NCBI GenBank assembly: GCA_037442925.1
Contig: JBBIPG010000001.1
Span: 1,368 to 65,367 of the forward strand
Origin: Candidatus Fraserbacteria bacterium
Lineage (GTDB): Bacteria > Bipolaricaulota > Bipolaricaulia > RBG-16-55-9
Direction: 5' to 3'
DNA: 64,000 nucleotides
The notes below the pieces were generated by a model that saw nothing but the letters and a program-made list of their open reading frames with translations, ran no database searches and was not told where the DNA came from. Below, piece by piece: positions 20,616-61,500 of this stretch. Position 1 is the stretch's first letter, and each line of letters begins with the position of its first letter. Made by a program: the position numbers and the translations under genes.

Positions 20616-21872
20616 ATGTCAGAACTGCTCGCGAAGGCCCAGGAGATCCTGCGACAGGAGGTGATCTGCAACCGCTGTCTCGGGCGTTGCTTTGCCAAGT
20701 CGGGCACGGGGTTAACGAACGAAGAGCGCGGGAAGGCTCTGCGAGTTCTTGCTGCAATGCACAAGCGCCAGCCATTCGTGGCCTCACAAGAGTGCTCGAT
20801 CTGTCAGAGTATTTTCACAACCGTGGATCGTTGGGTGGAGCAAGCTCTGCAGCGAATAGAAGGCTACGAGTTTCAGACATATCTCATGGGAACCCGCATT
20901 CCCTTGGAGATCGAGGCCGCGGAGCGATCGCTTTGGGAGAAGTATCACATTGGCGTTCAGTGTACGGAACCCATCAAGCAAGAGTTCAATCGCGAGGTGG
21001 GAAAGCGCTTTGGGATCATCATGTCCGCTCGTGGTCAACCCATTCTGGTGGATTTTCGAGAGCCGGAAGTTGTCTTTTTGATGGATCTAGAGCGCAATCA
21101 ACTGAAAGTGCGAGTCCACTCGCTCTTCCTCTATGGCCGGTATCGTAAGCTCGTACGAGGCATTCCGCAGACGAAGTGGCCCTGCCGTACGTGTCGTGGG
21201 CGAGGATGTGAGGAGTGCGATTACACGGGAAAGACGTATCCAGAGAGCGTAGAAGAGCTTATTGCTGAACCCGTACTAAGGGCAGCAAAAGGGAAGGCAC
21301 ATGCGCTTCATGCGGCGGGACGGGAGGATGTAGACGCTCGCATGTTGGGTAGCGGGCGGCCTTTCGTTCTGGAAATCACATCGCCTCGAAAACGAAGTCT
21401 GGACTTGGAACTGTTGACGAGAGAGATCAACAGACTGGCACAGGGCAAAGTGGAGGTGGGTGCGCTTCGCTTCGTCAAGAGCAAGGTTGTCGAGCACATC
21501 AAAGAGCTGGAAGCTCAGAAATCGTATCGTGCGGATGTCGCATTGGGTCGTGAAATTCATGAAGAAGAACTGCAACATGCTTTGCATCAGCTGATTGGCG
21601 ATATTGAGCAGCGGACTCCTCGCCGAGTGCGCCATCGGCGGGCCGATCTTGTGAGAACCCGAAGAGTTCTTGCTATCGACGGAAGACTCACAGGACCGTG
21701 CGCGGCCCTCATCGAGATTGTCTGCGATGGCGGACTCTACGTGAAAGAGCTCATTTCCGGAGATGAGGCTCGCACGCGCCCGAGTCTTTCAGGGTTATTG
21801 GGCACACGTGCACAAGTGGTAGAACTCGATGTTCTGGATGTTCTGGGCGGAATCAATCTGCCCGAAACTTGA
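20616..21872 (+). CDS. pus10: tRNA pseudouridine synthase Pus10 (archaeal/eukaryal type)
   Basis: N-terminal CNRCLGRCFAKSGTGLTNEERGKALRV zinc-ribbon region. Catalytic HAAGREDVDARMLGSGRPFVLE motif. 418 aa. Confidence 0.8.
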   Translation: MSELLAKAQEILRQEVICNRCLGRCFAKSGTGLTNEERGKALRVLAAMHKRQPFVASQECSICQSIFTTVDRWVEQALQRIEGYEFQTYLMGTRIPLEIEAAERSLWEKYHIGVQCTEPIKQEFNREVGKRFGIIMSARGQPILVDFREPEVVFLMDLERNQLKVRVHSLFLYGRYRKLVRGIPQTKWPCRTCRGRGCEECDYTGKTYPESVEELIAEPVLRAAKGKAHALHAAGREDVDARMLGSGRPFVLEITSPRKRSLDLELLTREINRLAQGKVEVGALRFVKSKVVEHIKELEAQKSYRADVALGREIHEEELQHALHQLIGDIEQRTPRRVRHRRADLVRTRRVLAIDGRLTGPCAALIEIVCDGGLYVKELISGDEARTRPSLSGLLGTRAQVVELDVLDVLGGINLPET

Positions 21873-44120: not shown

Positions 44121-44714
44121 GTGAAGCTGCTGCTCGGGACAAAAAACGACAAGAAATTCCCGGAATTTTTCCAGATTCTCGCGAATCTCCCCGTGGAATG
44201 GCTGACGTATCATGAGTGCCCCTTCCGTGACGTAAGAGAAGACGGTCGCACGTTTAAAGAAAATGCACTCAAAAAGGCTCGCCAGATCAGTCAGGCGACA
44301 GGGCTGGCCGTCTTGGCTGAGGATGCCGGCTTGGAGGTGGAGGCATTAGGAGGCAAGCCAGGTGTGTACTCGGCTCGCTTTGCAGGAGTTGCTGGTCGAA
44401 GGGCGACGGACCAGCAGAACATCGAAAAGCTTCTCAAGTTGCTGAAGGGTGTGGAAGATAGGAGGGCCCACTTTGTTTGCGTGGCTGTACTGCATTTCCC
44501 AGACGGGAAAGAGCTGATTTCTGAAGGAGAACTCAAGGGGCACATCGCTCAGGAGGCCCGAGGAACGCACGGCTTCGGCTACGACCCCGTGTTTATTCCT
44601 GAGGGCTATGAGAAGACGCTGGCAGAGCTGGGACCGTCTGTGAAAGACGAGATCAGTCATCGCAAGAAAGCGCTGGAACGACTCAAAAAAGAGCTTCAAG
44701 CTAAGGTTATTTGA
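44121..44714 (+). CDS. rdgB: dITP/XTP pyrophosphatase (Ham1/RdgB)
   Basis: GTKNDKK..., FGYDPVF motifs. Confidence 0.9.
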   Translation: MKLLLGTKNDKKFPEFFQILANLPVEWLTYHECPFRDVREDGRTFKENALKKARQISQATGLAVLAEDAGLEVEALGGKPGVYSARFAGVAGRRATDQQNIEKLLKLLKGVEDRRAHFVCVAVLHFPDGKELISEGELKGHIAQEARGTHGFGYDPVFIPEGYEKTLAELGPSVKDEISHRKKALERLKKELQAKVI

Positions 44715-44770
44715 CAGCCTCCCGAAAGTAAGCTATTCTTGATCTGGTAATACTATTATGAAACGGTAAG

Positions 44771-45022
44771 GTGATGGCCATGATCGGTAGCAAGCTGACC
44801 TCCAAAGGCCAGACGACGATTCCTAAAGAGATTCGAGACTTTCTCGGCCTGCGAGCTGGAGATCGGGTGGTCTTCCTTCGCCGGGAGGGGGAAGTCATCC
44901 TACAAGCTGTGAAGCAGACGCTTTTGGACCTGCGTGGGAGCATCCAGATTCGTAGACAGCCGGAGGACTTCGATCAGATCCGCCGACAAGTCAAGCGCCG
45001 AATGACCCGCAAGGGCGCATGA
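44771..45022 (+). CDS. vapB: AbrB/MazE-fold antitoxin (VapB-like)
   Basis: KLTSKGQTTIPKEIRD swapped-hairpin motif. Stop immediately followed by the PIN gene's ATG (TGAATG). Confidence 0.7.
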   Translation: MMAMIGSKLTSKGQTTIPKEIRDFLGLRAGDRVVFLRREGEVILQAVKQTLLDLRGSIQIRRQPEDFDQIRRQVKRRMTRKGA

Positions 45023-45451
45023 ATGACTCCGTGCTTTGTCGATACCAACATCTTCTTGCGCTTTCTCACTAGTGATGTCCCTGCTCAGGCCGAGGCGGTT
45101 GCGCAGCTACTGCGGCGAGCAGCAGACGGGAAAGTCTCCCTAAAAACGAGCGCGCTTGTGATCGCAGAGCTTGTCTGGACGTTGGAATCCTATTATGAGC
45201 TGGATCGCGAGGAGATCAAGGCCAAAGTGTTGGCGATCTTGAATACGCCGGGGTTGGAGGTGGAGGATGGCGAGCTCATTGGAGAAACCATTCTGTTCTA
45301 TGCAGAGAAGAATGTGGATTTCATTGATGCGTACCACGCTTATTGGATGAAGAGCCATGGACTCTCTCGGGTGTATACCTTCGATACGAAACACTTTACG
45401 CGGGCTGAGGGGATCATACCTCTGGTGCCGGGAGCCAAGGAGCAGGCGTAA
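45023..45451 (+). CDS. vapC: PIN-domain toxin VapC
   Basis: FVDTNIFLRFL N-terminus with acidic PIN residues. Confidence 0.8.
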   Translation: MTPCFVDTNIFLRFLTSDVPAQAEAVAQLLRRAADGKVSLKTSALVIAELVWTLESYYELDREEIKAKVLAILNTPGLEVEDGELIGETILFYAEKNVDFIDAYHAYWMKSHGLSRVYTFDTKHFTRAEGIIPLVPGAKEQA

Positions 45452-45497
45452 CACAGAGATCTTCAAGCCAAGCTTTCCTAGGACCCCATCTACACTC

Positions 45498-45525
45498 TTG
45501 CCAGATATTAAGAGCGTGTTATCAT
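45498..45525 (+). promoter_or_regulatory. Putative promoter for the protease-WD40 gene
   Basis: TTGCCA - 16 nt - TATCAT. Followed by a 6-bp hairpin in the leader. Confidence 0.35.
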
Positions 45526-45589
45526 ATGGGAGTAGGCCCGGATGTGGGTTTGAAAGAGTTCACATCTAGGCCAGAAAAGGAGGGCGCCC

Positions 45590-47064
45590 ATGCTCAAGCG
45601 TGGTCTCAGGCTTGCAGCGATACTCGGTTTCTTGTCGGTGTTGATTCTATCGGGGAGTTTTCCTGGAGTGGGGGTAATCGCAAGCGCGCAGCAAGATATT
45701 TCAGCGATCGTCGAGCGTGTCAGGCCGGCGGTCGTCGAAATCGTGACGGATAAGGGGCAAGGGAGCGGATTTATCATCACATCGGATGGGGCAGTTCTCA
45801 CTGCTTACCACGTCGTGCGGGGAGCCAGCAGCATCGAAGCTCGGTTGCCGAATGGCTCAAGCTACAGAGCAACTGTAGGAAGTATGATGAGACGTATGAC
45901 CGTGGGGGCAGCGATCTGGCCTTGCTGAGGGTAAGCGCCAGCGGCCTTCCCACAGTGAGCTTAGGCGACTCGGATACCATCAGGATTGGGCACTCCATCA
46001 TCGTCATGGGCTATCCCTTGGGTATGGGTTTTCTTGTTGGCACCGGAAACATTAGTGGCAGTGTGGATTTTGGCGGTGGGCGCACAGTCTTTGTAATTGA
46101 TGCTGCCGTCAACCCAGGCAACAGCGGCGGACCGCTCCTCAATGATGAAGGTGATGTTATTGGAGTCGTCTTCGGCAGGGCCGATGTCCCCGGGATCAGG
46201 GTGGAGGGAATCAACTTCGCTACCCCAATAAACACTGCCAAGCGTGAGTTGAGACTAAACGTACCCACTGTGCACACCCTCACCCTCGGCCACAACAGCA
46301 CAGTCCTGTCAGTAGTGTTCAGCCCCGACGGACGGCTGCTCGCCTCCGGCTCCGTGTTCTGGGACAGTAGCACGTGGAGAGGAGAGATCAAGCTGTGGGA
46401 TGTAGCCACGGGTCAGGAGATCCGCACCATCAGCCCCAGCGGTAGCTGCACTATCGAGTGGGGGATCGCGTTCAGCCCTAACGGACAATTTCTCGCCTCC
46501 GGCTCCGGGGAAGGAGTGGTCTATTTGTGGGAGGTGGCCACGGGCCGGGAGGTCCGCACCTTAACTACTGGCAACACCTTCTCAGTCTGTTGGGTGGCCT
46601 TCAGCCCGGACGGGCGGTTACTCGCCGCCGCCACCGCCACTGACGACATCAAACTGTGGGAGGTGGCCACGGGTCAGGAGATCCGCACTCTCACTGGCCA
46701 CACCTACGGTGTCCATCAAGTAGCCTTCAGTCCTGACGGAAAGTTCCTCGCTTCCGGTGCTGGTGACTATACTATCAAGCTGTGGGAGGTGACCACGGGC
46801 AAAGAGGTGCACACACTCTCCGGTCACACTGGGTCGGTGTACTCCGTAGCCTTCAGCCCAGATGGGAAGCAGCTCGCCTCAGGTTCCTGGGACGAGACAA
46901 TCAAGCTGTGGGCTGTGGCCACAGGACAAGAAGTTTGCACCCTCACAGGGCACACCGACCAGGTCAATTCGGTAGCCTACAGTCCCGATGGGAGGCTCCT
47001 TGCCTCCGCTGGCTATATGGACCATACGATTAAGCTCTGGAACATCACTGCACTGTCAGGGTGA
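45590..47064 (+). pseudogene. Secreted trypsin-like (S1/HtrA-type) serine protease fused to WD40 repeats, interrupted by a -1 frameshift near 45880
   Basis: ORF 45590..45928 carries signal peptide and the catalytic His (LTAYHVV). The next frame (45922..47064) continues with DLALLRV (Asp) and GNSGGPL (Ser), then 6-7 WD repeats. The two frames join at ...RATVG|KYDETYD. Confidence 0.7.
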
Positions 47065-47115
47065 ATGATCGGGATGATTGCGGGCAACAACACCTCAGGC
47101 AATCAGAACGGTATG

Positions 47116-47240
47116 GGCAACCCCTGCAATCACCCCTGGAACCGACCCGACGTGCCTGATGGGCAAGTGTGTCTGCCATAGATGCAAGGAAGCAACTGGC
47201 GGTCAGCAATCCGCTGTCAGCAGAGACGAAAGACTCAAAG
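47116..47240. repeat. Copy A of about 125-bp direct repeat flanking the DUF433/DUF5615 pair
   Basis: About 80% identical to 47938..48062, read by eye. Core: GTGTGTCTGCCATAGATGCAAGGAAGCAACTGGCGGTCAGCAATC. Confidence 0.6.
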
Positions 47241-47280
47241 CTGATGGCTGAAAGCTGACTGCCAATTCGCTACAATCAAC

Positions 47281-47547
47281 ATGGTGATACCCATGAAGAT
47301 CGCAGAACGCATTGAAGTCGACCATAACATCTGCCACGGCAAGCCCCGCATCGCCGGCACCCGCATCATGGTCGAACAGGTGCTGGATCTCCTAGCCGCT
47401 GGTATCCCCATTGAGCAGATCACTTCCGAGGAATACTTCCCGGATCTCACCAAAGAGGACGTACTGGCCTGCGTGGGCTTCGCCAATGCGTTCCTTAAGG
47501 GCGAAGAGTTCCATATCTACGAACCGGAGACCCCAAGCCCAGCGTGA
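47281..47547 (+). CDS. DUF433 protein (putative antitoxin)
   Basis: 88 aa, ...HGKPRIAGTRIMVEQVLDLLAAG typical of DUF433. Confidence 0.65.
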   Translation: MVIPMKIAERIEVDHNICHGKPRIAGTRIMVEQVLDLLAAGIPIEQITSEEYFPDLTKEDVLACVGFANAFLKGEEFHIYEPETPSPA

Positions 47548-47900
47548 AGATTCTGGCTGATCACTGCGTCTATGGCAAGACCGTTCAACTTCTTCGAGCA
47601 CAAGGCCATGAGGCCATCACGCTCCAGGAGTTGGGGCAGGCCAAGGTCGCTGACCATCAAGTGCTGATGCTGGCTCAGTCACTGGATGCCGTGCTGGTCA
47701 CAAACGACAAGGGATTTGGCAATATCCTGACCTATCCCCCGGAGCGCTATGGAGGCATCCTTGTACTGCGGGTGACCGCCACGAGCCAGCAACGAGTTCA
47801 TCAGATTCTATTGGATTTCTTAAAGTCACATGATCGGGAGTCGTTGCGCAAAGCGCTTGTGGTCATTGATGCCCGGACCTATCGGATCAGAAGAAGCTAG
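47544..47900 (+). CDS. DUF5615 (PIN-like) putative toxin
   Basis: 118 aa, MKILADHCV...LVTNDKGFG. 4-nt overlap with DUF433 gene. Confidence 0.6.
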   Translation: MKILADHCVYGKTVQLLRAQGHEAITLQELGQAKVADHQVLMLAQSLDAVLVTNDKGFGNILTYPPERYGGILVLRVTATSQQRVHQILLDFLKSHDRESLRKALVVIDARTYRIRRS

Positions 47901-47937
47901 CTGGCCAACGATTCCCCGTGGCTCGAAGAATCTTATG

Positions 47938-48062
47938 GACAACCTTGGCAATCACCCCGGAACCGGCCCAGCGTGCTCGATGGGTAGGTGTGTTTGCCAT
48001 AGACGCAAGGAAGCAACTAGCGGTCAGCAATCAGCTCTCAGCTAAAGGCAAGAGCTGAAGGC
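47938..48062. repeat. Copy B of about 125-bp direct repeat
   Basis: See copy A. Confidence 0.6.
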
Positions 48063-48156
48063 CACTCCCAACATTCAGGCAGATTAAATCGGGCGGTCTA
48101 GTTGCCTGAGTACCGGCCTACTGTCTAAGATGTAAAAATCGACAAATGGAGCGGTC

Positions 48157-48429
48157 ATGGCCGATGGCGATGTGGACCTTCTGGAGCGAATGCGCCGCAC
48201 ACGCAGCGGCTGGGGCGAGGATGACTTGGACAGACTTTATCGTAGCTTCAGCTTCCGCGAGATCACACGCCCCAGGGCCCCTCACCGTGTCTACGTCCAC
48301 CCTGCTCACCCTGACCTACGAGCTACTGTCGCGCGCAAAAAATCTCTGCCCAAGGGCTATCCGACCACGGCCGTACGCATCATTGATCAACTCTTGGAGA
48401 GACAGAAAGCGAAAGGGGGAAGCCCATGA
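48157..48429 (+). CDS. hicA: HicA-like mRNA interferase toxin
   Basis: 90 aa. SGWGEDDLDRLYRSFSF...HRVYVHPAHPDLRATVARKK fits HicA dsRBD-like pattern. Confidence 0.55.
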   Translation: MADGDVDLLERMRRTRSGWGEDDLDRLYRSFSFREITRPRAPHRVYVHPAHPDLRATVARKKSLPKGYPTTAVRIIDQLLERQKAKGGSP

Positions 48430-48665
48430 AGAAAGACGTAGATTATTATGACCGATTGCCTTGGAGGGTGCAGATCGAACCCGAGCGTCAAGACGACGGG
48501 ACGATCGTTTACATTGCCTCGCATCCGGAGTTTGAGGGCGTGCTGGGCAGTGGAACCACACCCGAAGAGGCGTTGGTCGATTTGCGCAAAGCACGCCGCG
48601 CGATGATCGAGGCATTGCTGTCGGAGGGTTACTCCGTGCCAGAACCAGCAGCCGTAGTGGTTTAG
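48426..48665 (+). CDS. hicB: HicB-like antitoxin (UPF0150)
   Basis: 79 aa. DGTIVYIASHPEFEGVLGSGTTPEEALVDLRKA. 4-nt overlap with hicA. Confidence 0.55.
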   Translation: MKKDVDYYDRLPWRVQIEPERQDDGTIVYIASHPEFEGVLGSGTTPEEALVDLRKARRAMIEALLSEGYSVPEPAAVVV

Positions 48666-48703
48666 CTTGGCTCTTCCTTGCTTGTGCCTGACAGCGTTGT
48701 GGA

Positions 48704-48964
48704 GTGCCAGGGAATGCGGATGAAGAACGACGCAACGAGGGGCTCAGCATCGCAGAGGTCGAACAAGCTTTGCTCAATGGACGCATTCTGGAGGATTATC
48801 CTCAAGATCCTCGCGGACCTTCGTGCCTGGTTTATGGGGATGCCGGAGGGCAGCCCATTCACGTGGTCTGCGGACGTAACCGCTCAGGATGGCTCGTGCT
48901 GATCATTGTGTATGTTCCGACAATGCCGAAATGGAAAAGCCAGACAGAAAGGAGTCAGCCATGA
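48704..48964 (+). CDS. DUF4258 putative toxin
   Basis: About 86 aa. ...ILEDYPQDPRGPSCLVYG...PIHVVCG...LIIVYVPT pattern. Start uncertain. Confidence 0.5.
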   Translation: MPGNADEERRNEGLSIAEVEQALLNGRILEDYPQDPRGPSCLVYGDAGGQPIHVVCGRNRSGWLVLIIVYVPTMPKWKSQTERSQP

Positions 48965-49107
48965 AGCCTTATGATGACTGCATCCATTGCGGCGGCCGGG
49001 TGGACGAACGCCTGGAGTGCATCGACTATCGCTACCACGGACAGCTCTTCATCCTGGGGCCGCGCCTCTCCAAGCTCGGGCTTTACATGCTGAGCGATCT
49101 GTTCTAG
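48961..49107 (+). CDS. YgiT/MqsA-type zinc-finger antitoxin-like protein
   Basis: 48 aa. MKPYDDCIHCGG...ECIDYRY. Overlaps DUF4258 stop (ATGA). Confidence 0.45.
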   Translation: MKPYDDCIHCGGRVDERLECIDYRYHGQLFILGPRLSKLGLYMLSDLF

Positions 49108-49152
49108 AATGTGCAAGGTATCCAAGAAGACAGCTAAGCTCAGGATTGGCGT

Positions 49153-52339: not shown

Positions 52340-55063
52340 CTAGCTTGTCGTTGAGAAGCGCGGCTCGAGCATAAGATAGACCTGAGGCTGTGCTGTGCCG
52401 ATGCCGTAAGCAAAACCCACTCGAAGCGAGCCAGTCATGAGCCCGTATCCCAGCACGACCTGGAGTTGGAGTTCTGCTCCCAAAGCGACCCGACTTTGAT
52501 CGAGTTCTAGAGTCGATCCGACCGTTCCGGCATCCACAAATAGGCTGCCGCGAAGATCGTCAAGAAATAGGGGTGAAATGGAGTCCCCGCAGCACGCCCA
52601 CTCGATGGCCCATACAGGGAATCGATATTCTGCGGTCATCGAAACAAGCTCGGATCCTACGGAGATGTTCGCAAAGCCGCGCAGCGGATACTTCCCGCTG
52701 ACACCTCCCAGACGGAACTCCTCGCGATCGCTCCAGGCGGCACCGGCTCGGAAGAGAAACTCGTGTGGGCCGACGGGATTCTCAAACGGAAGCTGAAACT
52801 CTTCACGCCATTCCAGAGTCAACCGACGCGCCAGTCCCTGCAAGGGCCATGTCAGACTGCCCTGGATCGCCAGTGAGGAGCGGCGCTGGAACAGGTCGAA
52901 CCCTTGCGCATCCATGAGTCGTTCCGTGAGAGATACCTCGGCCGCGCCGCGCTCTTGCCCTAGAGCCAGTGTCAAGACACGCTCACGGTTCAAGCTCTCT
53001 CCCCAGGGGAATTCCAGTGCGAACTCCTGACGCTCTTGTACAGGGCTCCCCTGCACACGGAAGTGAAGGGCGGGAAAGAACTGGTTATTGATGTAGCCAA
53101 ACTCGTAGAAAAACTCGAACGTGTCGGTACTCAATCCCACGTTGAGGTCGTAGCGATGTCGATGAAGCGGATCTTCGTTTTGCGTGAAGAACCCCACTTC
53201 CGTCATTCCGACAAAGGGCACCCAGAAGGTCGGGATCAGTGCAGGCACTGGATCGTAGATCACCGGTCGCAGCTTTTGAACTTCCTTAGCAGAGAGTGCA
53301 CTGGCCATCTGAGGCGTCTTCACGCTGGCTGAGTTGCTCGAAGGCGGCTTGAGACTCCAACGGGCGGGGTCATACTCCGCACGCTGTAGGCTGAATCCGT
53401 TTTCCGTGTAGCCTACGATGAGGAGGTGCTGTCCATCGGACGAGACGGCAGGGTCAAAACTGCCGCTGAGGGAACGGGTGACACGGAAGAGCTGGCGATC
53501 TCCCAGGCGAAGAGCGTAGACATCAAAAATGCCCTCACGGTTGGACGAGAAGAGAATGAAACGGCCATCGGGTGAGAAGACGGGATCGAAGTCGAGAGCT
53601 GGGTCTTGGGTCAGAGGAATCGGTTCCCCTCCTTGGCTATTCATGAGATATATATCTTGCCCCTGCTCACTCTTCCAGAGGGAGAGCGCGATGAGTTTTC
53701 CATCCGGAGAGATGCTCATGGAGTGGACGCGTTGGTCCCTATCGAATTCCGTGAGTACTTGACGGCTCTTAGTAAGAAGATCGAAGACGACCAACGCACT
53801 TGTTCCTGCGGTGCCGTTGCGAGCGAAGAGCAAACGGCGGCCATCTAAGAAGGATTCTACCTGGTAGACTCTCTCGCCATACGTGAGACGCGCCTCGCGC
53901 CGACTTTCAAGATCATACAGGTAGAGATCATAGACGCGAGAGCCATGGGTGATGCCGAGCTTAGGATAAGTCAGTGTGATCGCATCCAGCCAGGCTGGCG
54001 GACCACATTCGCAAGCCAGCAGTGGCTGATCGTCTGTCCCGTTGGGCCGGATCCAGCGTAAGCCGGAGCTACGCTGTGGATCTTGGTGATAGTAGGCAAT
54101 GGCATCACCCAACGGGGATTCCGCGGGCCAGACACTCCAGAAATCCAGGGAGCCTAGAGGGGTTCGCGCGGTTACCCCGCCTTGGCTCTGGATCTCGTCT
54201 TGAAGCCGGGCCGAGCGCTCCTCTGCCCAGAACCGAAAGTCCTGATAGGTTTTTTCAGAGGACTGACCCGTCGCGATACTCAATGGACCTGAGAGGAAAG
54301 AACCCAGGAGATTGGTCGCATAGGCTCGGCTGATCTCTTGAATCGCTTCATGACCGTATGTTTCATCCAGATACGCCAGCAGCACGGACCCAACGAAGTA
54401 GGCTTGTACGTCAGCGGAAGGCCAAACCTTCTTCGTGTACGGGGAACTCAATTGCGCCAGAGTAGGCAAGCGCTCTGATTCAGCCATGGCCCGGAGGCTC
54501 ATCTCGGCAAGACCCGGATCGCGATGAGTCCGGTAGATGAGACCCTCTCGCCACCAGAGCGGCTTCACGAGACCGGGGGCAACGAGACTCCCGAAGATCG
54601 CCCGCAGATCCGCGGTGATTCCTTCCACTCGCGTCGCGTCAACGATACGTCCGTATTCAGAAAAGATGATCTCCTCAAGCCACGATTCCCTCGGGGAGCT
54701 CCACAGTTCAGTGGACCACCCATACGGGTGATCGATCACCATGACGTTGTGGGGAAAGATGCTCCGGACGACTGTTGTGACATCGCTACGATCCGTCAGC
54801 ACGATATAGGTCTTTGCCGGCTCGGAATACTGGAGCTTCTGAGCCCAGTACTCATGAGCTCTTTCCGCAAGGAGAGCGGCTTCCTTCGCTAATTCGAAGA
54901 GATCATCCGGGAAGAGGATCTCAAAGTGCTCGGTCTTAAGAGCCTGCCAGTTGCGAGCCGAAGCCTGCGTTCCCCAGGGCAAAGGAGTAGGTGCTCCGTC
55001 GAGAGTGATGAACCATATTGCGACAGCTGCGAGTACCCAGATCAACCACGACCTCACGTACAC
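52340..55063 (-). CDS. Large envelope protein: N-terminal domain, TolB-like PD40 beta-propeller repeats, C-terminal Omp85-family beta-barrel
   Basis: 907 aa. N-terminal signal/TM. PD40-type repeats (SPDGKLIAL..., FSPDGRFILFSS...). C-terminal YPLRGF ... LFVDAGTVG motifs typical of Omp85/BamA barrels. Confidence 0.55.
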   Translation of the reverse strand: MYVRSWLIWVLAAVAIWFITLDGAPTPLPWGTQASARNWQALKTEHFEILFPDDLFELAKEAALLAERAHEYWAQKLQYSEPAKTYIVLTDRSDVTTVVRSIFPHNVMVIDHPYGWSTELWSSPRESWLEEIIFSEYGRIVDATRVEGITADLRAIFGSLVAPGLVKPLWWREGLIYRTHRDPGLAEMSLRAMAESERLPTLAQLSSPYTKKVWPSADVQAYFVGSVLLAYLDETYGHEAIQEISRAYATNLLGSFLSGPLSIATGQSSEKTYQDFRFWAEERSARLQDEIQSQGGVTARTPLGSLDFWSVWPAESPLGDAIAYYHQDPQRSSGLRWIRPNGTDDQPLLACECGPPAWLDAITLTYPKLGITHGSRVYDLYLYDLESRREARLTYGERVYQVESFLDGRRLLFARNGTAGTSALVVFDLLTKSRQVLTEFDRDQRVHSMSISPDGKLIALSLWKSEQGQDIYLMNSQGGEPIPLTQDPALDFDPVFSPDGRFILFSSNREGIFDVYALRLGDRQLFRVTRSLSGSFDPAVSSDGQHLLIVGYTENGFSLQRAEYDPARWSLKPPSSNSASVKTPQMASALSAKEVQKLRPVIYDPVPALIPTFWVPFVGMTEVGFFTQNEDPLHRHRYDLNVGLSTDTFEFFYEFGYINNQFFPALHFRVQGSPVQERQEFALEFPWGESLNRERVLTLALGQERGAAEVSLTERLMDAQGFDLFQRRSSLAIQGSLTWPLQGLARRLTLEWREEFQLPFENPVGPHEFLFRAGAAWSDREEFRLGGVSGKYPLRGFANISVGSELVSMTAEYRFPVWAIEWACCGDSISPLFLDDLRGSLFVDAGTVGSTLELDQSRVALGAELQLQVVLGYGLMTGSLRVGFAYGIGTAQPQVYLMLEPRFSTTS

Positions 55064-55094
55064 GTACGTTCCTCTCTCCTTAAGGTTCGGATCT

Positions 55095-56144
55095 TCAGGG
55101 AAGCACCCCAGCCTCCACGGTCAATACGGGAACGCCGTCGCGGGTGACGGCCAGACTGATATTCACATTTAGGTCCGGGAAGCTAAGCGAAGTCCCCCAG
55201 CCGAAGAGCACTTCGTTCGACTCTTCTCCATCGCCCAATACCATGCCACCCTCGAAGAAGACCGACGAGAGCAGGCGGAGTCGCACGGGAATCCATCCGA
55301 GCCTCTCTCCCAGAATGTCCCTGAGATCCAACTGGAAGATCTGAGCTGAAAGCACTTCAAAGCCCTGTTCGAGCGAGAACAAGAAGAATCGATGGCCCGC
55401 AAACGAAGCGGGATAGCTGCGAAGCCCCAGATTGAAGCGAAAGCCTGGCAGGTCGGCGGGGTTATCTAACTCTCCCAGGCGAAACTCCAACGTGGTCTCA
55501 TCGACCCACAATCTGGTCGAGCTAAAGAAAGTCTGAAAGGAGCTTTCGAGGTCGGTCAGAGGCTGACCGAACAGAAACTCTCCGCGAGTCTCCAGAGTGA
55601 TGCCGAGCGGCAGTGGCCAGTGAAGGAAACCGCTCAGGTGAAAGTATCGCACATCCGGACCTTCCATCTCGCCTTCCCCTGGCCAGAGGCGCCCCAAGAA
55701 TCCCGTTCCTTGGAGCTGGCTTTGCTGGAGAACTGCGCCAAGAAGTCCCTCTCCTTCACTCCCCAGCAGTCGATTGAGTGCCAGCAGGTCCAGCGACGCA
55801 TGAATACCCTGTTCGCCTTGACGACCGAATACCAAGCTGCTCGGCCAGTCTCCATAGGAGATCCTCAGAGCGTTCTGGTATTGCAGGCCCGTTCGGAAGC
55901 GTCCCATCTGGCTCAACACGCCATAGGCTCCGCCTGCTTCCAGTTCCAACCCCAAGCCTTCCAGAGTTAATGCAAAATCCAGTCCCAGCAGCAGGCCGTC
56001 GCGATGGCTCTCCGCGATCACAGGGCGCAGATGGGGAATCGCACCGATGGGTTGCTGCTCCTGGGACCAACCACTAAACCCGCTCAAAGCGACGAGCCCC
56101 AGAGTGAGCCATGCCCAACTGTATCTCCATCCTCGATCACTCAT
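55095..56144 (-). CDS. Secreted hypothetical protein, possibly outer-membrane beta-barrel
   Basis: 349 aa, signal peptide, alternating hydrophobic pattern. Start overlaps ABC-F stop. Confidence 0.45.
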   Translation of the reverse strand: MSDRGWRYSWAWLTLGLVALSGFSGWSQEQQPIGAIPHLRPVIAESHRDGLLLGLDFALTLEGLGLELEAGGAYGVLSQMGRFRTGLQYQNALRISYGDWPSSLVFGRQGEQGIHASLDLLALNRLLGSEGEGLLGAVLQQSQLQGTGFLGRLWPGEGEMEGPDVRYFHLSGFLHWPLPLGITLETRGEFLFGQPLTDLESSFQTFFSSTRLWVDETTLEFRLGELDNPADLPGFRFNLGLRSYPASFAGHRFFLFSLEQGFEVLSAQIFQLDLRDILGERLGWIPVRLRLLSSVFFEGGMVLGDGEESNEVLFGWGTSLSFPDLNVNISLAVTRDGVPVLTVEAGVLP

Positions 56145-58095
56145 GTTGTGATGATGGAATCTGCCTCTGGAGTTCTTCCATAATAGCCGTCCATTCTCGA
56201 TACATCACATCCAAGCGCGTTTTCGCCTCTTGATACTGCTTGTTGAGCTCACGCAGGCGTTCGTGATCTTGCGCGTAGCTAGCCTCTTGCAGTGCCTCTT
56301 CGATCCGAGCGATCGTGCCTTCCCATTCCGTCACGGCGTGAGACAGTCCCGCTTCTTGTGTCTCCAGCTTCTTGCGTTCCCTTTGTCTTACTTTCTCATC
56401 GTGGCCTGCCTTTGGTGTTTGAGCCTGACGTCTTGGAGCTTTCTCTTGTTGTTTGTGCTCTTGCGCTCCTCGTTTCGTCCCCTCACCGGTACGTCTGCGG
56501 AGGTAATCTTCGTACCTTCCGCGATAGATGTAGCACTCTCCGTCACGGATCTCCCAGACTTGGGTGGCGAATCTCTGAATGAGGTACCGATCGTGGGATA
56601 CAAACAGAACCGTTCCTTCGTAGTTATGCAGTGCCTGTTCCAGCACTTCTCGTGAACTTATGTCCAAGTGGTTGGTCGGCTCATCCAGCACGAGAAAATT
56701 CCCGTCCAATTGCGCCAAGCGAGCCAGCGCGAGGCGACTGCGCTCACCGCCCGACAACTCCCCAATACGCTTATACACGTCGTCTTCGGAGAAGAGGAAA
56801 CGCCCGAGGAAGTCGCGCGCTTCACTGATGGTCTGATGCTTCCCGGCCATGAGCGCATCCAAGACCGTCTGATCACGAGCGAGCTCTTCCCACTGGCTTT
56901 GGCGGAAGTACGAAAGAATGGCGTTATGTCCCATTTGGAGTCTGCCTGCCAAAGGCGTAAGTTCTCCGACCAATGCTTTCAGGAAACTGGTCTTGCCACA
57001 ACCGTTGGGCCCGATGAGAGCCACGCGCTCGCCCCGCTCCAGTATCGCTTGTGGGATGCGAAAGAGCACCTGGGGCTGGCCATTCGCACCCGGATAACCA
57101 ATGAGGAGATCTTCTACTTCGAGAATGCGCTGACCACTGGGTTCTCCTAACGGAATGGAGAAATGAATGGATTTCGTGACCGGTGGAGCCTCTACGAGCT
57201 CTAGTCGTTCGAGTTGCTTGCGCCGCGCTTTGGCTTGCGCCTCTCGGAACCGTCCACCGGCAATGTTCTTCCGGATGAATTCCTCTGATTTCTTGATGAA
57301 TTCCTGTTGTTGATCGTAGCGTTTCTGCTGATGCCCTACCCGCTCGGTCTTGATCGCGCGATATTTTGAGTAATTGCCTGGATATTCTGTAAGTCGACCC
57401 ACTTCCAGCTCCCAGATTCGATCGGCCAGTTTGTCGATCATGAATCGATCGTGGGAGGAGAGTATGAAGCCGCCCTTCCAGTTTGCGAGATGCTCCTCGA
57501 GCCATTCGAGGGCGTCGAAATCCAGGTGATTCGTGGGCTCATCCAAGAGCAGGATTTCCGGTTCCTCGAGTAAGAGTTTGGCGAGCGCCGCACGAGCTCG
57601 CTCCCCTCCACTCAAATGGGCAACGGGCTTGTTCTCATCTTCTAGAGAAAAGCCCAGTCCCGCCAGCACTTGATGAACCTCACTCTCGTACTCATAGCCT
57701 CCTGCAAGGCGGTACGATTCCAAGAGCTCATCATATCGGTGCAGCAGTTCTTCGCTGTCCGACTCTGCTGCCAGTTTCGCCTCTAACGTTCGAAGTTCGT
57801 GCTCTTTTCGGAGCAGCTCTTGCTTCGCGGCCCGTACGGCTTCATAGAGTGTGTCGGCCCCATGCAACTGGGGCTCCTGAGCGAGATAACCGATCTTTAC
57901 GGAGCTGGCCCTTTTCACCCGACCGTCGTTCGGCTCCTCGATCCCGGTGAGCACCTTGAGCAGAGTTGATTTCCCAGAACCGTTGGGACCAATGAGTGCA
58001 ATGCGGTCGCCTCGGGCCACTTGCAGCGTGACACCCTTAAGAACGGTCTCCGCTCCAAACCGCTTTGTCAGTCCTTCCGCGCTGATGGCTGCCAT
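56137..58095 (-). CDS. ABC-F family ATPase (two tandem ABC domains, no TM)
   Basis: 652 aa. Two Walker A (GPNGSGKST, GPNGCGKTS), two signature motifs, charged linker. Confidence 0.88.
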   Translation of the reverse strand: MAAISAEGLTKRFGAETVLKGVTLQVARGDRIALIGPNGSGKSTLLKVLTGIEEPNDGRVKRASSVKIGYLAQEPQLHGADTLYEAVRAAKQELLRKEHELRTLEAKLAAESDSEELLHRYDELLESYRLAGGYEYESEVHQVLAGLGFSLEDENKPVAHLSGGERARAALAKLLLEEPEILLLDEPTNHLDFDALEWLEEHLANWKGGFILSSHDRFMIDKLADRIWELEVGRLTEYPGNYSKYRAIKTERVGHQQKRYDQQQEFIKKSEEFIRKNIAGGRFREAQAKARRKQLERLELVEAPPVTKSIHFSIPLGEPSGQRILEVEDLLIGYPGANGQPQVLFRIPQAILERGERVALIGPNGCGKTSFLKALVGELTPLAGRLQMGHNAILSYFRQSQWEELARDQTVLDALMAGKHQTISEARDFLGRFLFSEDDVYKRIGELSGGERSRLALARLAQLDGNFLVLDEPTNHLDISSREVLEQALHNYEGTVLFVSHDRYLIQRFATQVWEIRDGECYIYRGRYEDYLRRRTGEGTKRGAQEHKQQEKAPRRQAQTPKAGHDEKVRQRERKKLETQEAGLSHAVTEWEGTIARIEEALQEASYAQDHERLRELNKQYQEAKTRLDVMYREWTAIMEELQRQIPSSQHE

Positions 58096-58256
58096 GATGA
58101 ATCATTTCACAGATGAGCTGGGACTAGCTGCAACCGGATTGTATGGGAATTTTGACGGATCGGCAACAGCGTTACCCTTCCGGGAGCGATGTCCACCCTG
58201 AGAAAGCCCGTCGGACTTGCCGCGGAATTGAGCCGCACCCTATACTGAGATTACCC

Positions 58257-58588: not shown

Positions 58589-61500
58589 GTTTCGTCCACT
58601 TGCACGTGCACTCAGAGTATAGCTTGCTGGATGCTACCTGCCGAATTGATCAGCTGTTGGACCGAGCTGTAGAGTTCCAGATGCCTGCGATAGCCCTTAC
58701 GGATCATGGCGTGCTCTGCGGGGCGATCGAGTTTTATCTTAAGGCCCGCGAAAGAGGCATTCAGCCGATCATCGGCTGCGAGCTCTATGTGGCTCCCGGC
58801 AGCCGCTTCGAGAAGCGGCAGACAGAAAAGTATTATCATCTCACCGTGCTCGCTCGCAACGCCACAGGGTATAGAAACCTCTTGAAGCTGACGAGTCTCG
58901 GCTACTTGGAAGGCTTCTACTATCGCCCGCGCGTGGACAAAGAGCTGCTGCGCCAATACAGCGACGGCCTGCTGGCACTTTCCGGGTGTCTTAAGAGCGA
59001 GATCAACACGCTTCTTCTTCGGGGGGATTTAGAGGCTGCTCGTGCTGCGGCGCGGGAGTTTCAAGAGATCTTTGGGCATGAATATTTCTTCATGGAACTC
59101 CAAGACCATGGTTTGGAGGACCAACGGCGGCTCAGACCCCAACTGATGGAACTGGCTCGACGAATCGGTGCTCGCCTCGTCGCCAGCAACGACGTGCATT
59201 TCCTTACCCGTGCGGATCACGAAGCTCATGAAGTCTTCATCAATATTGGCTCCAGCAAGTCCAACGAGCGGCGCAGCTATGGTCACGAATGCTATCTCAA
59301 GTCCCCCGAAGAGATGGCTCAGATCTTCCCAGACATGCCGGAGGCCCTTGAAACTACGCTGTACATTGCTGAACTATGCCAGCTCGAACTCGATCTCAGT
59401 CATCGGCATCTGCCCTACTTTGAGCTGCCCCCTTCGGAGACGAGCGCGGATCGCTACCTCGAGAAGCTGGCGTGGGAAGGTGTCCAGCAACGTTACCCGG
59501 AACTCACGGCGGAGATCGAAGAACGGCTGCGTCATGAGCTTGAGATCATCGAGCACATGGGCTTTGCCTCGTATTTCTTGATCGTTCAAGATTTCATTCG
59601 CTTTGCCAAGTCTCGCGGGATTTCGGTGGGACCGGGAAGAGGCTCTGCAGCAGGGAGCCTGGTCTGCTATGCGTTGGGCATCACCGATGTAGATCCACTT
59701 CGGTATGGACTGATCTTCGAGCGCTTTTTGAACCCCGATCGCATTGAGCTTCCGGATATCGACATCGATTTCTGCATGCGCCGCCGCGACGAAGTGATCC
59801 GATATGTAGAAGAGAAGTACGGCACGGATCACGTGGCCCAGATTGTCACATTCGATACGATGGCAGCGCGAAGCGCCGTACGCGATGTGGCGCGGGCTAT
59901 GGGCATCTCGCATGCGGATGCCGACAGAATTGCCAAACTCATCCCCTTCGGGGCTACCCTCGAACAAGCCTTGTCGGCCTCGAGAGAACTTAGGGAGCTC
60001 GGCGAGCGCGATGAGAGGATTCAGCGCTTGTTGGAAGTGGCGGGTAGACTCGAAGGGCTCGTCCGCAACCCCGCCACTCATGCCGCGGGCGTGGTCATCG
60101 CACCCAACGAGATCACGCAATATACAGCACTCATGCGTTTGAGCGATGGCGCTGTTGTCACTCAGTACGACATGATCTCTGTAGGTGCCATCGGCATGCT
60201 CAAGATGGACTTCCTGGGCTTACGGAATCTCACCGTGCTCGAAGATACGCTCAAGTTCATTCGCCAACACATGGGCCAGAAGCTGGAGCTCCGCGATATT
60301 CCGCTGGAAGACCCCAAGACCTATAGCCTGCTGCAACAGGGCCGCACCGCAGGAGTGTTCCAGCTGGAGAGCAGCGGCATTCGCGAGATGCTCAAGCGTC
60401 TGGAACCCACAGAGTTCAAAGACGTGATCGCCACGCTCGCGCTCTATCGCCCTGGGCCTTTAGAGAGCGGTATGGCCAACGACTACATCGAGCGCAAGCA
60501 CGGGCGCGAGAAGATCTCCTACCCTCACCCGAAACTCGAAGGAATTCTTCGGGACACGTATGGGTTGCCCATCTATCAGGATCAAGTGCTGATGATGGCT
60601 CGCGTGATGGCGGGCTTTTCCCTGGCTGAGGCAGACACGCTGCGGAAGGCCATCGGCAAGAAGAACAGGGCACTCATGGAAAAGATGAGGCAGAAGTTCA
60701 TTGAGGGATGCGTGAAGAACGAGATCGCCGCCCAGAAGGCCGAATCCCTCTTTACAGATATTGAGAAATTCGCGCGCTACGGCTTTGTGAAAGCCCACTC
60801 CACAGCGTATGCTCTCATCTCATACTGGACGGCCTATCTCAAAGCGAACTACCCCACATTCTACCTGGCAGCACTCTTGACGAGTGTGGCGGGCAACTCG
60901 GCCCGTGTGCGAGAGTACATCAACGAATGCCGCGAGCTGGGCATTCAGCTGCTCCCACCGGATATCAATGAGAGCCAGGCGGATTTCACACCGCGGGAGG
61001 GCAAGACCGGCAACGCCATTCGCTTTGGACTGGGCGCAATCAAGAACGTTGGACACGGCCCCATCGAGGCGATATTGAAGGCCCGTCAAGCGCGTCCGTT
61101 TGAGTCTTTCTTCGACTTCTGCCGGCGTGTCGAGGCCGATAAGCTCAACCGCGAGGTGCTCGAAAGCCTCGTCAAGGCGGGAGCCTTCTGCCAAATGGGT
61201 ACGCGCAAATATCTCTTGGAGCTTATTCCGATGGGTATGGAATTGGCCGGACGCGCCCACCGAGAGCGCCGCAGTGGCCAAGCAGCACTCTTTGGTGTGG
61301 GCGAGATCTCTCCTCTAGGAAACGCCGCCCCACGAGCGACGGTGAATGAAGAATTCTCCAAGTGGGAACTGCTCAGTTTCGAGAAGGAACTCTTGGGACT
61401 CTATGTGAGCGGGCATCCCTTAGAGGATTATGAGGACCGATTGGCTCTCTATCGCACGTGCGCGCTCAGTGCCATGGCAGAAGCTACAGAAGGTCAGGAG

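What the first reader, a model, noticed from the sequence alone, without database searches (positions are those of the whole stretch)
52340..58095. Operon coupling an ABC-F translation ATPase to two envelope proteins, including a PD40-propeller/Omp85-barrel fusion
On the minus strand the ABC-F gene's stop overlaps the start of a 349-aa secreted beta-rich protein (ATGAGTGA overlap). This is followed 31 nt later by a 907-aa protein whose C-terminal roughly 300 residues carry Omp85/BamA barrel motifs (YPLRGF, LFVDAGTVG).

Its periplasmic part is TolB-like PD40 repeats instead of POTRA domains, behind an N-terminal domain of unknown function. An Omp85 barrel with a beta-propeller periplasmic module is not an architecture I know from BamA/TamA/TpsB families.

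Tight coupling to a cytoplasmic ABC-F factor is also odd. Either the overlap is simply genome compaction, or the three genes share regulation.
Basis: partly seen in the sequence, partly recalled or inferred. Interest (0 to 1): 0.6.

Follow-up and report, generated by a model that had tools for sequence, protein, structure and literature searches.

The report
Two paired Omp85 outer-membrane barrel genes
Behind an ordinary ribosome-associated ABC-F gene lie two outer-membrane barrel genes that always travel together in the Bipolaricaulota/Fraserbacteria group: a small Omp85-type barrel that standard annotation misses, and a large propeller-plus-Omp85 fusion whose architecture was already catalogued in 2014.

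Summary
The three minus-strand genes, the ATGAGTGA overlap, the 31-nt spacer and the quoted motifs are all present.

**The pairing.** This small-barrel family is tiny: about 24 clusters among 1.84 billion representatives. In three unrelated genomic contexts it sits directly upstream of a WD40-Omp85 gene. Eighty mainstream WD40-Omp85 loci lack it.

**The ABC-F gene.** Its adjacency is confined to one clade in which about 17 kb is syntenic. It reflects inherited operon structure, not demonstrated functional coupling.

Function is inferred: a two-barrel outer-membrane module. I could not test whether the lineage also has a canonical BamA.

The parts
56137..58095 (-). ABC-F family ATPase gene (652 aa). 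Two ABC domains, the ABC_tran_Xtn linker and a C-terminal coiled-coil domain; Uup/EttA/YheS-like ribosome-associated factor.
   Evidence: NF000355 451.6 bits, cut-off 380; EttA, YbiT, YheS and Uup chains at E about 1e-87 to 1e-90.
58138..58166 (-). Sigma-70-like promoter match (TTGCCG-17-TACAAT) about 43 nt upstream of the ABC-F start. It is the only minus-strand promoter-like match lying upstream of any of the three genes (the other minus-strand match, 58616-58644, sits inside the divergent + strand genes); none lies between them.
   Evidence: This is a consensus match only and is weak evidence.
56137..56144 (-). 8-nt overlap ATGAGTGA: the start of the small-barrel gene overlaps the ABC-F stop.
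   Evidence: The same 8-nt overlap is seen in L001, L002, L003, L006, L007, L014 and L015.
55095..56144 (-). 349-aa POTRA-less ('noNterm'-type) Omp85-fold barrel. Signal peptide at residues 1-27 (56064..56144); 16-strand barrel at residues 28-349 (55098..56063).
   Evidence: - AF2 pLDDT 87.3 with 16 strands.
- hhalign against the partner's barrel gives E 2.2e-5.
- Relative P0176 aligns full-length (E 5.4e-14) and passes the Pfam Omp85 cut-off.
- This protein itself has no Pfam, NCBIfam or PDB sequence hit.
55410..55430 (-). LGLRSYP, the small barrel's counterpart of the Omp85 loop-6 (V/I)RG(F/Y) motif. L239, S243 and Y244 are invariant; R242 is at least 90% conserved.
55245..55262 (-). VFFEGG, the small barrel's counterpart of the Omp85 (F/Y)xDxG strand motif. 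E298 is invariant.
55064..55094 (-). 31-nt spacer with the Shine-Dalgarno-like AAGGAGAGAGG, 7 nt before the GTG start of the 907-aa gene.
   Evidence: The small-to-large gene spacing is -4 to 39 nt in all relatives.
52340..55063 (-). 907-aa WD40-like Omp85 protein: signal peptide, pseudo-M1-peptidase domain, TolB-like propeller and Omp85 barrel.
54179..54958 (-). N-terminal alpha/beta domain (residues 36-295), M1/gluzincin-like. It is catalytically degenerate in this protein.
   Evidence: - Peptidase_MA_2 matches 5 of 48 homologues (best E 2.4e-8).
- A profile of the domain finds M1 aminopeptidases as its best PDB hits (3cia E 0.006; ERAP2), aligned over the WLxEG(L/F)A and Y.xG region.
- Heinz & Lithgow Table S3 lists M1 structures at about 99% Phyre confidence.
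54641..54664 (-). FSEYGRIV, the position of the HExxH zinc-binding motif. Both histidines are replaced (S...R). The downstream Glu (WWREGL, 54539..54556) and Tyr (AYFVGS, 54386..54403) are retained.
53339..54178 (-). Six-bladed PD40 beta-propeller (residues 296-575).
   Evidence: - Pfam PD40 E 4.7e-13.
- TIGR02800 TolB E 2.5e-23, below its cut-off.
- The family profile hits TolB at E 1e-52.
- 24 strands in DSSP.
52343..53221 (-). 16-strand Omp85 barrel (residues 615-907). It holds YPLRGF (52673..52690) and LFVDAGTVG (52517..52543).

Best explanation
**What is shown.** The locus is an inherited operon. Its first gene is a housekeeping ribosome-associated ABC-F ATPase. Its last two genes form a lineage-specific outer-membrane module made of two Omp85-superfamily barrels.

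- **Gene 2** encodes a bare 16-strand Omp85-fold barrel with a signal peptide and no periplasmic domain. It is too divergent for any curated profile to detect.
- **Gene 3** encodes a member of the already catalogued WD40-like Omp85 subfamily. POTRA domains are replaced by an M1-aminopeptidase-like domain plus a TolB-like six-bladed propeller.
- In this clade the peptidase domain has lost both zinc-binding histidines, so it can at most bind substrate, not cleave it.

**What is inferred.** Both barrels sit in the toga-like outer membrane of a Fraserbacteria/Bipolaricaulota bacterium. The periplasmic pseudo-peptidase and propeller probably act as a receptor for unfolded polypeptide or peptide segments. 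The two barrels probably work as a pair in outer-membrane protein insertion, translocation or quality control, loosely comparable to the two-barrel arrangements of the mitochondrial SAM complex.

The ABC-F gene shares a transcript, and in many genomes a start/stop overlap, with the barrel genes. It is not needed for the pair to exist.
For: **Fold and domains**
- Both AF2 models are confident (pLDDT 87.3 and 89.2).

**Sequence links for the small barrel**
- hhalign against the partner's barrel: E 2.2e-5 over 275 columns, with the LRSYP/LRGF and FFEGG/FVDAG motifs aligned.
- Relative P0176 aligns full-length (98.2%, E 5.4e-14) and passes the Pfam Omp85 gathering score (35.3 bits, cut-off 24).
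- Plain HMMER with the large-barrel profile also finds two small barrels.

**Pairing**
- An exhaustive profile search of 1.84 billion representatives finds only 26 clusters, 2 of them Cache-domain false positives.
- In every locus of the family proper where the downstream sequence is readable, a WD40-Omp85 gene follows on the same strand at -4 to 39 nt. The most distant relative, P0176, is the exception noted under evidence against.
- This holds in three different neighbourhoods: ABC-F upstream; a divergent MurF-like ligase upstream (L010, L020, L021); and PEGA/DUF4384 upstream (L022).
- None of 80 mainstream HExxH-type WD40-Omp85 loci has a matching ORF or a second barrel.

**Constraint**
- Across the clade the small barrel is 47-66% identical. 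ABC-F is 54-71% and the large protein 34-54%.

**Degenerate active site**
-.

**Envelope context**
- Bipolaricaulota and Fraserbacteria are diderm sister phyla of Thermotogae, with a toga and beta-barrel tethers (PMC10665443; bioRxiv 10.1101/2021.05.31.446380 and 10.1101/2025.11.21.689855).
Against: - There is no experimental or complex-prediction evidence that the two barrels touch.
- The function is extrapolated from the superfamily. The WD40-like and noNterm Omp85 subfamilies have no characterised member.
- Pfam Omp85 is below threshold for the 907-aa protein on its own and absent for the 349-aa protein.
- The most distant small-barrel relative, P0176, is not followed by a WD40-Omp85 gene.
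- The WD40-Omp85 family mostly lives without the small barrel, so the partnership is a late, clade-specific addition.
- The orientation of the N-terminal module (periplasm or cell surface) is assumed from Omp85 topology.
Confidence: 0.5

Rival explanations
1. The barrel is only an anchor. The 907-aa protein is basically an outer-membrane-anchored periplasmic peptidase or peptide-binding unit, with an M1 domain gated by a propeller as in tricorn or S9 peptidases. The Omp85 barrel serves only as a membrane anchor. The small barrel is an independent channel or insertase that happens to be co-inherited.
For: - Most family members keep an intact HExxH...E...Y catalytic set.
- The propeller also hits Tricorn_N/Tricorn_2nd and S9 peptidase propellers.
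- Mainstream members work without any small barrel.
Against: - In this clade the catalytic histidines are gone, yet the protein is retained and conserved.
- The barrel keeps the Omp85 loop-6 and strand motifs rather than decaying into a generic anchor.
- The pair is adjacent in three unrelated contexts.
Confidence: 0.22
2. Type V-like secretion. The N-terminal peptidase-like and propeller module is a passenger exported to the cell surface through or with the help of an Omp85 barrel, as the patatin domain of PlpD is in type Vd secretion. The small barrel would be a helper translocator.
For: - The domain order (enzyme-like passenger, then Omp85 barrel) resembles PlpD.
- Heinz & Lithgow and Bettin et al. 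both raise translocation as a possible role for non-POTRA and noNterm Omp85 proteins.
Against: - There is no POTRA domain, which PlpD and TpsB proteins have.
- There is no patatin or TPS domain.
- The AF2 model has a high pTM (0.88), implying a fixed packing of the propeller against the barrel end rather than a tethered passenger.
- A folded six-bladed propeller is an unlikely passenger (my inference).
Confidence: 0.1
3. ABC-F coupling is functional. The ribosome-associated ABC-F factor is needed to translate or regulate the two envelope proteins, and the conserved start/stop overlap enforces stoichiometric co-expression.
For: - The 8-nt ATGAGTGA-type overlap is conserved in at least seven loci whose ABC-F proteins are only 54-71% identical.
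- No internal promoter-like or terminator-like site separates the genes.
Against: - The whole stretch of about 17 kb (CofD, DnaE, DivIC, ABC-F, the two barrels, UbiE-type methyltransferase, CCG/Fer4, tRNA_bind) is syntenic in the same genomes, so adjacency carries no specific signal.
- Other members of the clade have 25-49 nt gaps instead of the overlap.
- The barrel pair occurs without any ABC-F neighbour in L010, L020, L021 and L022.
- ABC-F genes of this type are universal housekeeping genes.
Confidence: 0.06

Closest known systems
WD40-like ('WD40-Omp85') subfamily of the Omp85/TpsB superfamily (Heinz & Lithgow 2014, PMC4104836)
   Same: - The order of domains is the same: an M1-aminopeptidase-like domain, a TolB-like PD40 propeller and a C-terminal Omp85 barrel, with no POTRA.
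- Homologues of the 907-aa protein from Myxococcota and Gallionella carry PF07676 plus PF01103.
   Different: - In this clade the HExxH site is lost (SEYGR).
- The gene is always preceded by a small Omp85-fold barrel gene, which mainstream members lack.
- The subfamily has no experimentally characterised member.
noNterm Omp85 proteins (Heinz & Lithgow 2014; Leptospira LIC12252/LIC12254/LIC12258, Bettin et al. 2024, PMC11358297)
   Same: The 349-aa protein is a signal peptide plus a bare 16-strand Omp85-type barrel with no periplasmic domain.
   Different: - The known noNterm groups are defined by a PF01103 hit. This family has none, except for one distant relative.
- It ends in an invariant ...GVLP rather than an aromatic residue.
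- It is genetically locked to a WD40-Omp85 partner.
BamA / TamA (for example D. radiodurans BamA 8xnb, E. coli BamA, P. aeruginosa TamA 8us1)
   Same: - A 16-strand barrel.
- The loop-6 RG(F/Y) motif and the (F/Y)xDxG motif.
- These are the best structural matches for both barrels.
   Different: - Neither protein has POTRA domains.
- NCBIfam BamA and TolB equivalog models score far below their cut-offs.
TolB (Tol-Pal system)
   Different: - There is no TolB N-terminal domain.
- The propeller is fused between a peptidase-like domain and a membrane barrel.
- TIGR02800 scores 82.7 bits against a cut-off of 343.
M1 (gluzincin) aminopeptidases / Pfam Peptidase_MA_2, including tricorn-interacting factor F3
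   Same: The HExxH ... (W)xxEG(L/F)A ... Y.xG motif series is present in the family.
   Different: - Here both histidines are replaced, so this is a pseudo-enzyme.
- Sequence similarity to solved M1 structures is weak (best E 0.006).
Mitochondrial SAM complex (Sam50 paired with a second barrel)
   Same: - An Omp85 barrel that works next to a second barrel.
   Different: This is an analogy only. No physical interaction has been shown here, and there is no homology beyond the superfamily level.
ABC-F translation factors (EttA, Uup, YheS, YbiT)
   Same: - Twin ABC domains, an inter-domain linker and a C-terminal coiled coil.
- E about 1e-87 to 1e-90 against solved ribosome-bound ABC-Fs.
   Different: The protein itself shows nothing unusual. 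It reaches none of the specific equivalog cut-offs (Uup 399.8 bits against 900), so its subfamily is unassigned.

Membership tests
Omp85 superfamily (907-aa protein, C-terminal part) | C-terminal 16-strand beta-barrel of the BamA/TamA/Sam50 type | tested here: met
Omp85 superfamily (907-aa protein, C-terminal part) | Match to Pfam PF01103 at the gathering threshold | tested here: inconclusive
   - The single sequence scores 21.3 bits against a cut-off of 24 (E 2.3e-4).
- 23 of 48 homologues match at E <= 0.01, best 3e-9.
- The family profile hits BamA chains at 1e-9 to 1e-7.
Omp85 superfamily (907-aa protein, C-terminal part) | Conserved loop-6 (V/I)RG(F/Y) motif and (F/Y)xDxG strand motif | tested here: met
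   YPLRGF is at 792-797 and LFVDAG at 841-846. R795, G796 and G846 are at least 90% conserved in the family.
BamA / TamA proper | One or more N-terminal POTRA domains (PF07244) | tested here: not met
   There is no POTRA hit in Pfam or NCBIfam. The AF2 model shows a peptidase-like domain and a propeller instead. The NCBIfam BamA model scores 12.6 bits against a cut-off of 1050.
WD40-like Omp85 subfamily (Heinz & Lithgow 2014) | PD40/TolB-like propeller N-terminal to an Omp85 barrel in one polypeptide | tested here: met
   The subfamily's domain patterns (PF07676 repeats plus PF01103) are in the paper's supplement.
WD40-like Omp85 subfamily (Heinz & Lithgow 2014) | Additional aminopeptidase (M1)-like domain at the N-terminus | tested here: met
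   The domain is homologous to the HExxH-bearing domain of family members. Peptidase_MA_2 matches 5 of 48. M1 structures are the best PDB hits. In this protein it is catalytically degenerate.
M1/gluzincin metallopeptidases (as an active enzyme) | HExxH zinc-binding motif | tested here: not met
   The aligned position reads SEYGR. The whole Fraserbacteria/Bipolaricaulia clade lacks the motif, while the L010, L020 and L022 relatives and mainstream members keep it.
noNterm Omp85 (349-aa protein) | 16-strand Omp85-type barrel with no periplasmic domain | tested here: met
noNterm Omp85 (349-aa protein) | Match to Pfam PF01103 | tested here: not met
   - None of the 34 close family members matches, even at E <= 10.
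- There is no PDB sequence hit.
- The only links are indirect: relative P0176 passes the cut-off (35.3 bits) and aligns full-length, and hhalign against the partner's barrel gives E 2.2e-5.
noNterm Omp85 (349-aa protein) | Loop-6 RG(F/Y)-type and (F/Y)xDxG-type motifs | tested here: inconclusive
   Variant forms LRSY(P) and FFEGG align with the partner's LRGF and FVDAG and are nearly invariant. Whether they sit in loop 6 and strand 13 could not be checked, because model coordinates are not exposed.
Type Vd autotransporter (PlpD-like) | Patatin passenger plus a POTRA domain before the barrel | tested here: not met
   There is no patatin or POTRA hit.
ABC-F family | Two ABC ATPase domains joined by the ABC-F linker, with no transmembrane domain | tested here: met
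   PF00005 matches twice and PF12848 once. NF000355 scores 451.6 bits against 380. Ribosome-bound ABC-F structures match at E about 1e-90.
Functional two-barrel complex | Physical interaction of the 349-aa and 907-aa proteins | not testable with these tools
Only genetic linkage in three contexts is available.

The most novel reading that the evidence does not exclude
The small POTRA-less barrel and the pseudo-peptidase/propeller Omp85 form a heteromeric, POTRA-independent Omp85 machine. This machine would be the main, or a dedicated, beta-barrel insertase of the toga-type outer membrane in Bipolaricaulota and Fraserbacteria. That would be a second bacterial solution to outer-membrane protein assembly, comparable to the two-barrel logic of the mitochondrial SAM complex.
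Probability: 0.12. Interest if true: 0.8.

Novelty: new variant of a known kind. Interest (0 to 1): 0.45.

Why it matters
Omp85 proteins are the only known machines that insert beta-barrels into outer membranes. Almost everything known about them comes from POTRA-bearing BamA, TamA and Sam50.

This locus gives a concrete, conserved example of two non-POTRA Omp85 proteins that are genetically locked together. It comes from a deep-branching, toga-bearing lineage that now has a cultured member.

It also shows that curated profiles miss a slowly evolving Omp85-fold family altogether. This matters for genomic calls of 'diderm or monoderm' and for counts of Omp85 proteins per genome.

If the pair turns out to be a functional unit, it offers a simple system for asking what the periplasmic module of an Omp85 protein actually has to do.

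The headline claim of a never-seen architecture does not hold, and the ABC-F link is ordinary.

Tried and rejected
- **Sequence profiles on the 349-aa family.** Pfam and NCBIfam on the protein and on all 34 close relatives gave no meaningful hit. A PDB sequence search with the family profile gave only noise.
- **Weakest hits of the exhaustive search.** P0178 and P0179 are Cache-domain chemoreceptors, so I rejected them as false positives.
- **Polyangium upstream gene.** I tested it as a possible small-barrel homologue and found no similarity. It is a low-complexity protein with a PilZ-like C-terminus (my reading of the sequence; no profile was run).
- **afdb50 fold library.** It was not available.
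- **Metagenome scan with A1.** I repeated the scan with a narrower alignment, A4.
- **Canonical POTRA-BamA in this lineage.**
  - Literature searches and the Ran1 genome supplement gave no count.
  - The 64-kb window holds no other Omp85, POTRA or SLH gene.
I left the third homologue search unused because a top-120 list could not answer a lineage-restricted question.
- **P0176 locus.** I looked for a WD40-Omp85 neighbour there. The downstream gene is a convergent serine-hydrolase-like fragment (my reading of the sequence; no profile was run).
Full report
**Observation.** The ABC-F stop and the 349-aa start share ATGAGTGA. A 31-nt spacer with AAGGAGAGAGG precedes the 907-aa start. YPLRGF and LFVDAGTVG sit at residues 792-797 and 841-849.

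A sigma-70-like match lies about 43 nt upstream of the ABC-F start. No promoter-like or convincing terminator-like site lies between the three genes. That fits one transcript, but it is weak evidence.

**Organism.** The window is about 99% identical to contig JBBIMR010000004.1 of MAG GCA_037444325.1. The closest named homologues are from Candidatus Fraserbacteria, followed by Bipolaricaulota/Acetothermia.

These phyla are described as diderm sister groups of Thermotogae. They have a toga-like outer membrane that is detached at the poles, and Omp-alpha/Omp-beta tethers (PMC10665443; bioRxiv 10.1101/2021.05.31.446380; bioRxiv 10.1101/2025.11.21.689855; PMC6092417).

**The 907-aa protein.** Pfam finds PD40 at E 4.7e-13. 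It finds Omp85 (PF01103) at 21.3 bits, just under the gathering score of 24.

The AlphaFold2 model built on 48 homologues is confident (pLDDT 89.2, pTM 0.88) and has four parts:

| Residues | Part |
|---|---|
| up to ~35 | N-terminal hydrophobic helix / signal peptide |
| 39-293 | alpha/beta domain |
| ~300-572 | 24-strand, six-bladed propeller |
| 615-903 | 16-strand barrel |

- A profile of the family hits TolB at 1e-52, the whole barrel of D. radiodurans BamA at 1e-9 and E. coli BamA at 7.6e-8.
- PF01103 matches 23 of 48 homologues at E <= 0.01.

So the C-terminal part is an Omp85 barrel and there are no POTRA domains.

**The N-terminal domain.** Most homologues carry HE[HY]THI.HLD, a later W..EGLA and an invariant Y..G. 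Five of 48 match Pfam Peptidase_MA_2 (best E 2.4e-8). A profile of the domain finds M1 aminopeptidases as its best PDB matches, weakly (3cia E 0.006; ERAP2). The alignment covers the third-ligand Glu and the catalytic Tyr region.

In the window protein, and in the whole Fraserbacteria/Bipolaricaulia clade, the HExxH position reads SEYGR or similar. The Glu and Tyr are kept. The domain is therefore a pseudo-peptidase here.

**Is the architecture new?** No.
- Heinz & Lithgow (2014, PMC4104836) list a 'WD40-like' Omp85 subfamily whose propeller most resembles TolB.
- Their supplement gives its Pfam patterns (PF07676 repeats plus PF01103). For each member it lists a best barrel hit (BamA or TamA), a best WD40 hit (TolB) and a best aminopeptidase hit (M1 structures 1z5h, 4kxd, 4fgm).
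- Bettin et al. (2024, PMC11358297) repeat this description.
- NCBI names Polyangium and Gallionella homologues 'BamA/TamA family outer membrane protein'.
- A metagenome scan found more than 568 loci of the HExxH-bearing type.

**The 349-aa protein.** Pfam and NCBIfam find nothing, either for it or for any of its 34 close relatives. A PDB sequence search with the family profile also finds nothing.

Three sequence-level links support this:
- hhalign of the family against the barrel part of the 907-aa family gives E 2.2e-5 over 275 columns. LRSYP aligns with LRGF, and FFEGG with FVDAG.
- The distant relative P0176 aligns full-length (98.2%, E 5.4e-14) and passes the Pfam Omp85 gathering score (35.3 bits).
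- Plain HMMER with the large-barrel profile picks up two of the small barrels.

The protein therefore belongs, by fold and by remote homology, to the 'noNterm' kind of Omp85 protein. It forms a family that curated profiles do not see.

**Distribution and linkage.** An exhaustive profile search of 1.84 billion cluster representatives returned 26 clusters. The two weakest are Cache-domain false positives. A scan of GTDB species genomes found seven loci. All are labelled Fraserbacteria, Bipolaricaulota, Bipolaricaulia or Acetothermia, apart from one MAG labelled Thermotogae that has the same synteny.

Within the family proper, wherever the downstream sequence could be read, a WD40-Omp85 gene follows on the same strand at -4 to 39 nt. 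The most distant relative, P0176, stands alone. The pairing occurs in three unrelated contexts:
1. The core clade, with ABC-F upstream.
2. L010, L020 and L021, labelled Candidatus Bipolaricaulota, with a divergent MurF-like gene upstream and an S8 peptidase downstream.
3. L022, between a PEGA/DUF4384 gene and a CDP-alcohol phosphatidyltransferase gene.

In contexts 2 and 3 the large protein still has HExxH (HELLH, HEMVH), and the small barrel ends in a canonical aromatic residue.

The reverse does not hold. None of 80 mainstream WD40-Omp85 loci contains an ORF matching the small-barrel profile or a second Omp85 barrel. The 45 loci with at least 1.2 kb of upstream sequence have heterogeneous upstream genes. 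Polyangium has an unrelated upstream gene.

Across the core clade the small barrel is 47-66% identical to the window protein. That is close to ABC-F (54-71%) and above the large protein (34-54%). This is unusually slow evolution for an outer-membrane protein.

**ABC-F.** The 652-aa protein is a standard ribosome-associated ABC-F. Its position upstream of the small barrel, often with the same 8-nt overlap, is conserved in the core clade.

However, the whole surrounding region is conserved in those genomes too: CofD, DnaE, DivIC, (enolase), ABC-F, the two barrels, a UbiE-type methyltransferase, a CCG/Fer4 protein and a tRNA-binding protein. Some members have 25-49 nt gaps instead of the overlap. 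The barrel pair also exists without ABC-F in two other contexts. I therefore read the ABC-F link as an inherited operon and probable co-transcription, not as functional coupling.

**Mechanism.**

*Shown:*
- Two Omp85-superfamily barrels with signal peptides.
- One of them is bare.
- The other carries a dead M1-like domain and a TolB-like propeller.
- The two genes are tightly and repeatedly linked.

*Inferred:*
- Both sit in the toga-type outer membrane.
- The N-terminal module faces the periplasm, as is usual for Omp85 topology.
- That module binds unfolded polypeptide or peptide segments.
- The two barrels act together in protein insertion, translocation or quality control.

The rival explanations are an anchored peptidase or peptide binder, type V-like export, and true ABC-F coupling. 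They are listed with the evidence for and against each.

**Limits.** I could not test two things: whether these genomes also encode a canonical POTRA-BamA, and whether the two proteins interact. Both are straightforward next computations.

**Verdict.** The fusion architecture is already known. The cryptic small Omp85 barrel, its obligate pairing with the fusion and the loss of the peptidase site in this clade are, as far as my searches show, unreported.

Noticed in passing
window 44698..49129: This stretch of about 4.4 kb is replaced by only about 92 bp in the 99%-identical MAG contig JBBIMR010000004.1. It holds three things:
- a PIN-domain gene (45023..45451);
- a trypsin-like protease/WD40-repeat gene that appears split by a frameshift (45590..45928 and 45922..47064);
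- a further small ORF (47544..47900).

It looks like a strain-variable island.
   Followed up: partly
window 20616..21872 (+): A 418-aa ORF matches Pus10_C (E 1e-66) and the archaeal-type Pus10 THUMP domain. As far as I know, Pus10 is normally an archaeal and eukaryotic pseudouridine synthase, so its presence in a bacterial genome is unusual.
   Followed up: no
L009 6709..8004; also upstream of the WD40-Omp85 gene in L054, L061, L072, L076, L082 and L094: Mainstream, HExxH-bearing WD40-Omp85 genes often have a different conserved upstream gene. It encodes 370-460 aa: a conserved N-terminal stretch of about 100 aa, a Pro/Ala-rich low-complexity linker and a conserved C-terminal stretch of about 110 aa that looks PilZ-like to me (...RQLVYRYVRNREP.F.DDL). 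In some loci it overlaps the Omp85 gene start by 4 nt. It may be a distinct partner in that branch.
   Followed up: partly
window 55098..55115 (the C-terminus of the 349-aa protein) and alignment A2: In the core clade the small barrel ends in ...GVLP, with an invariant final proline rather than the aromatic C-terminal residue usual for bacterial beta-barrels. The deeper-branching relatives (L010, L020, L022) end in ...F.
   Followed up: no
window 52343..52366: The 907-aa protein ends ...EPRF-STTS. It has four residues after the phenylalanine that is the last residue in most core-clade orthologues (...EPRF...GPTF...QKAF).
   Followed up: no
window 55668..55859 (residues 96-159 of the 349-aa protein): The most strongly conserved stretches of the small barrel are SYGDWP.S.V.GR.GE.G and GTGF.G.LWP...E. 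They flank a loop with two short predicted helices at residues 120-140. They have no counterpart in the BamA motifs, and their role is unknown.
   Followed up: no
L002 10670..12158: In one Fraserbacteria-like lineage an M48 peptidase gene and a LemA gene are inserted directly downstream of the WD40-Omp85 gene, on the opposite strand. The other syntenic loci lack them.
   Followed up: no
L014 (CAZMNF010000003.1): A MAG labelled 'uncultured Thermotogae bacterium' has the complete core-clade synteny and proteins 48-68% identical to the window's. Its taxonomic label may be wrong, or the module may extend into Thermotogae-affiliated lineages.
   Followed up: no
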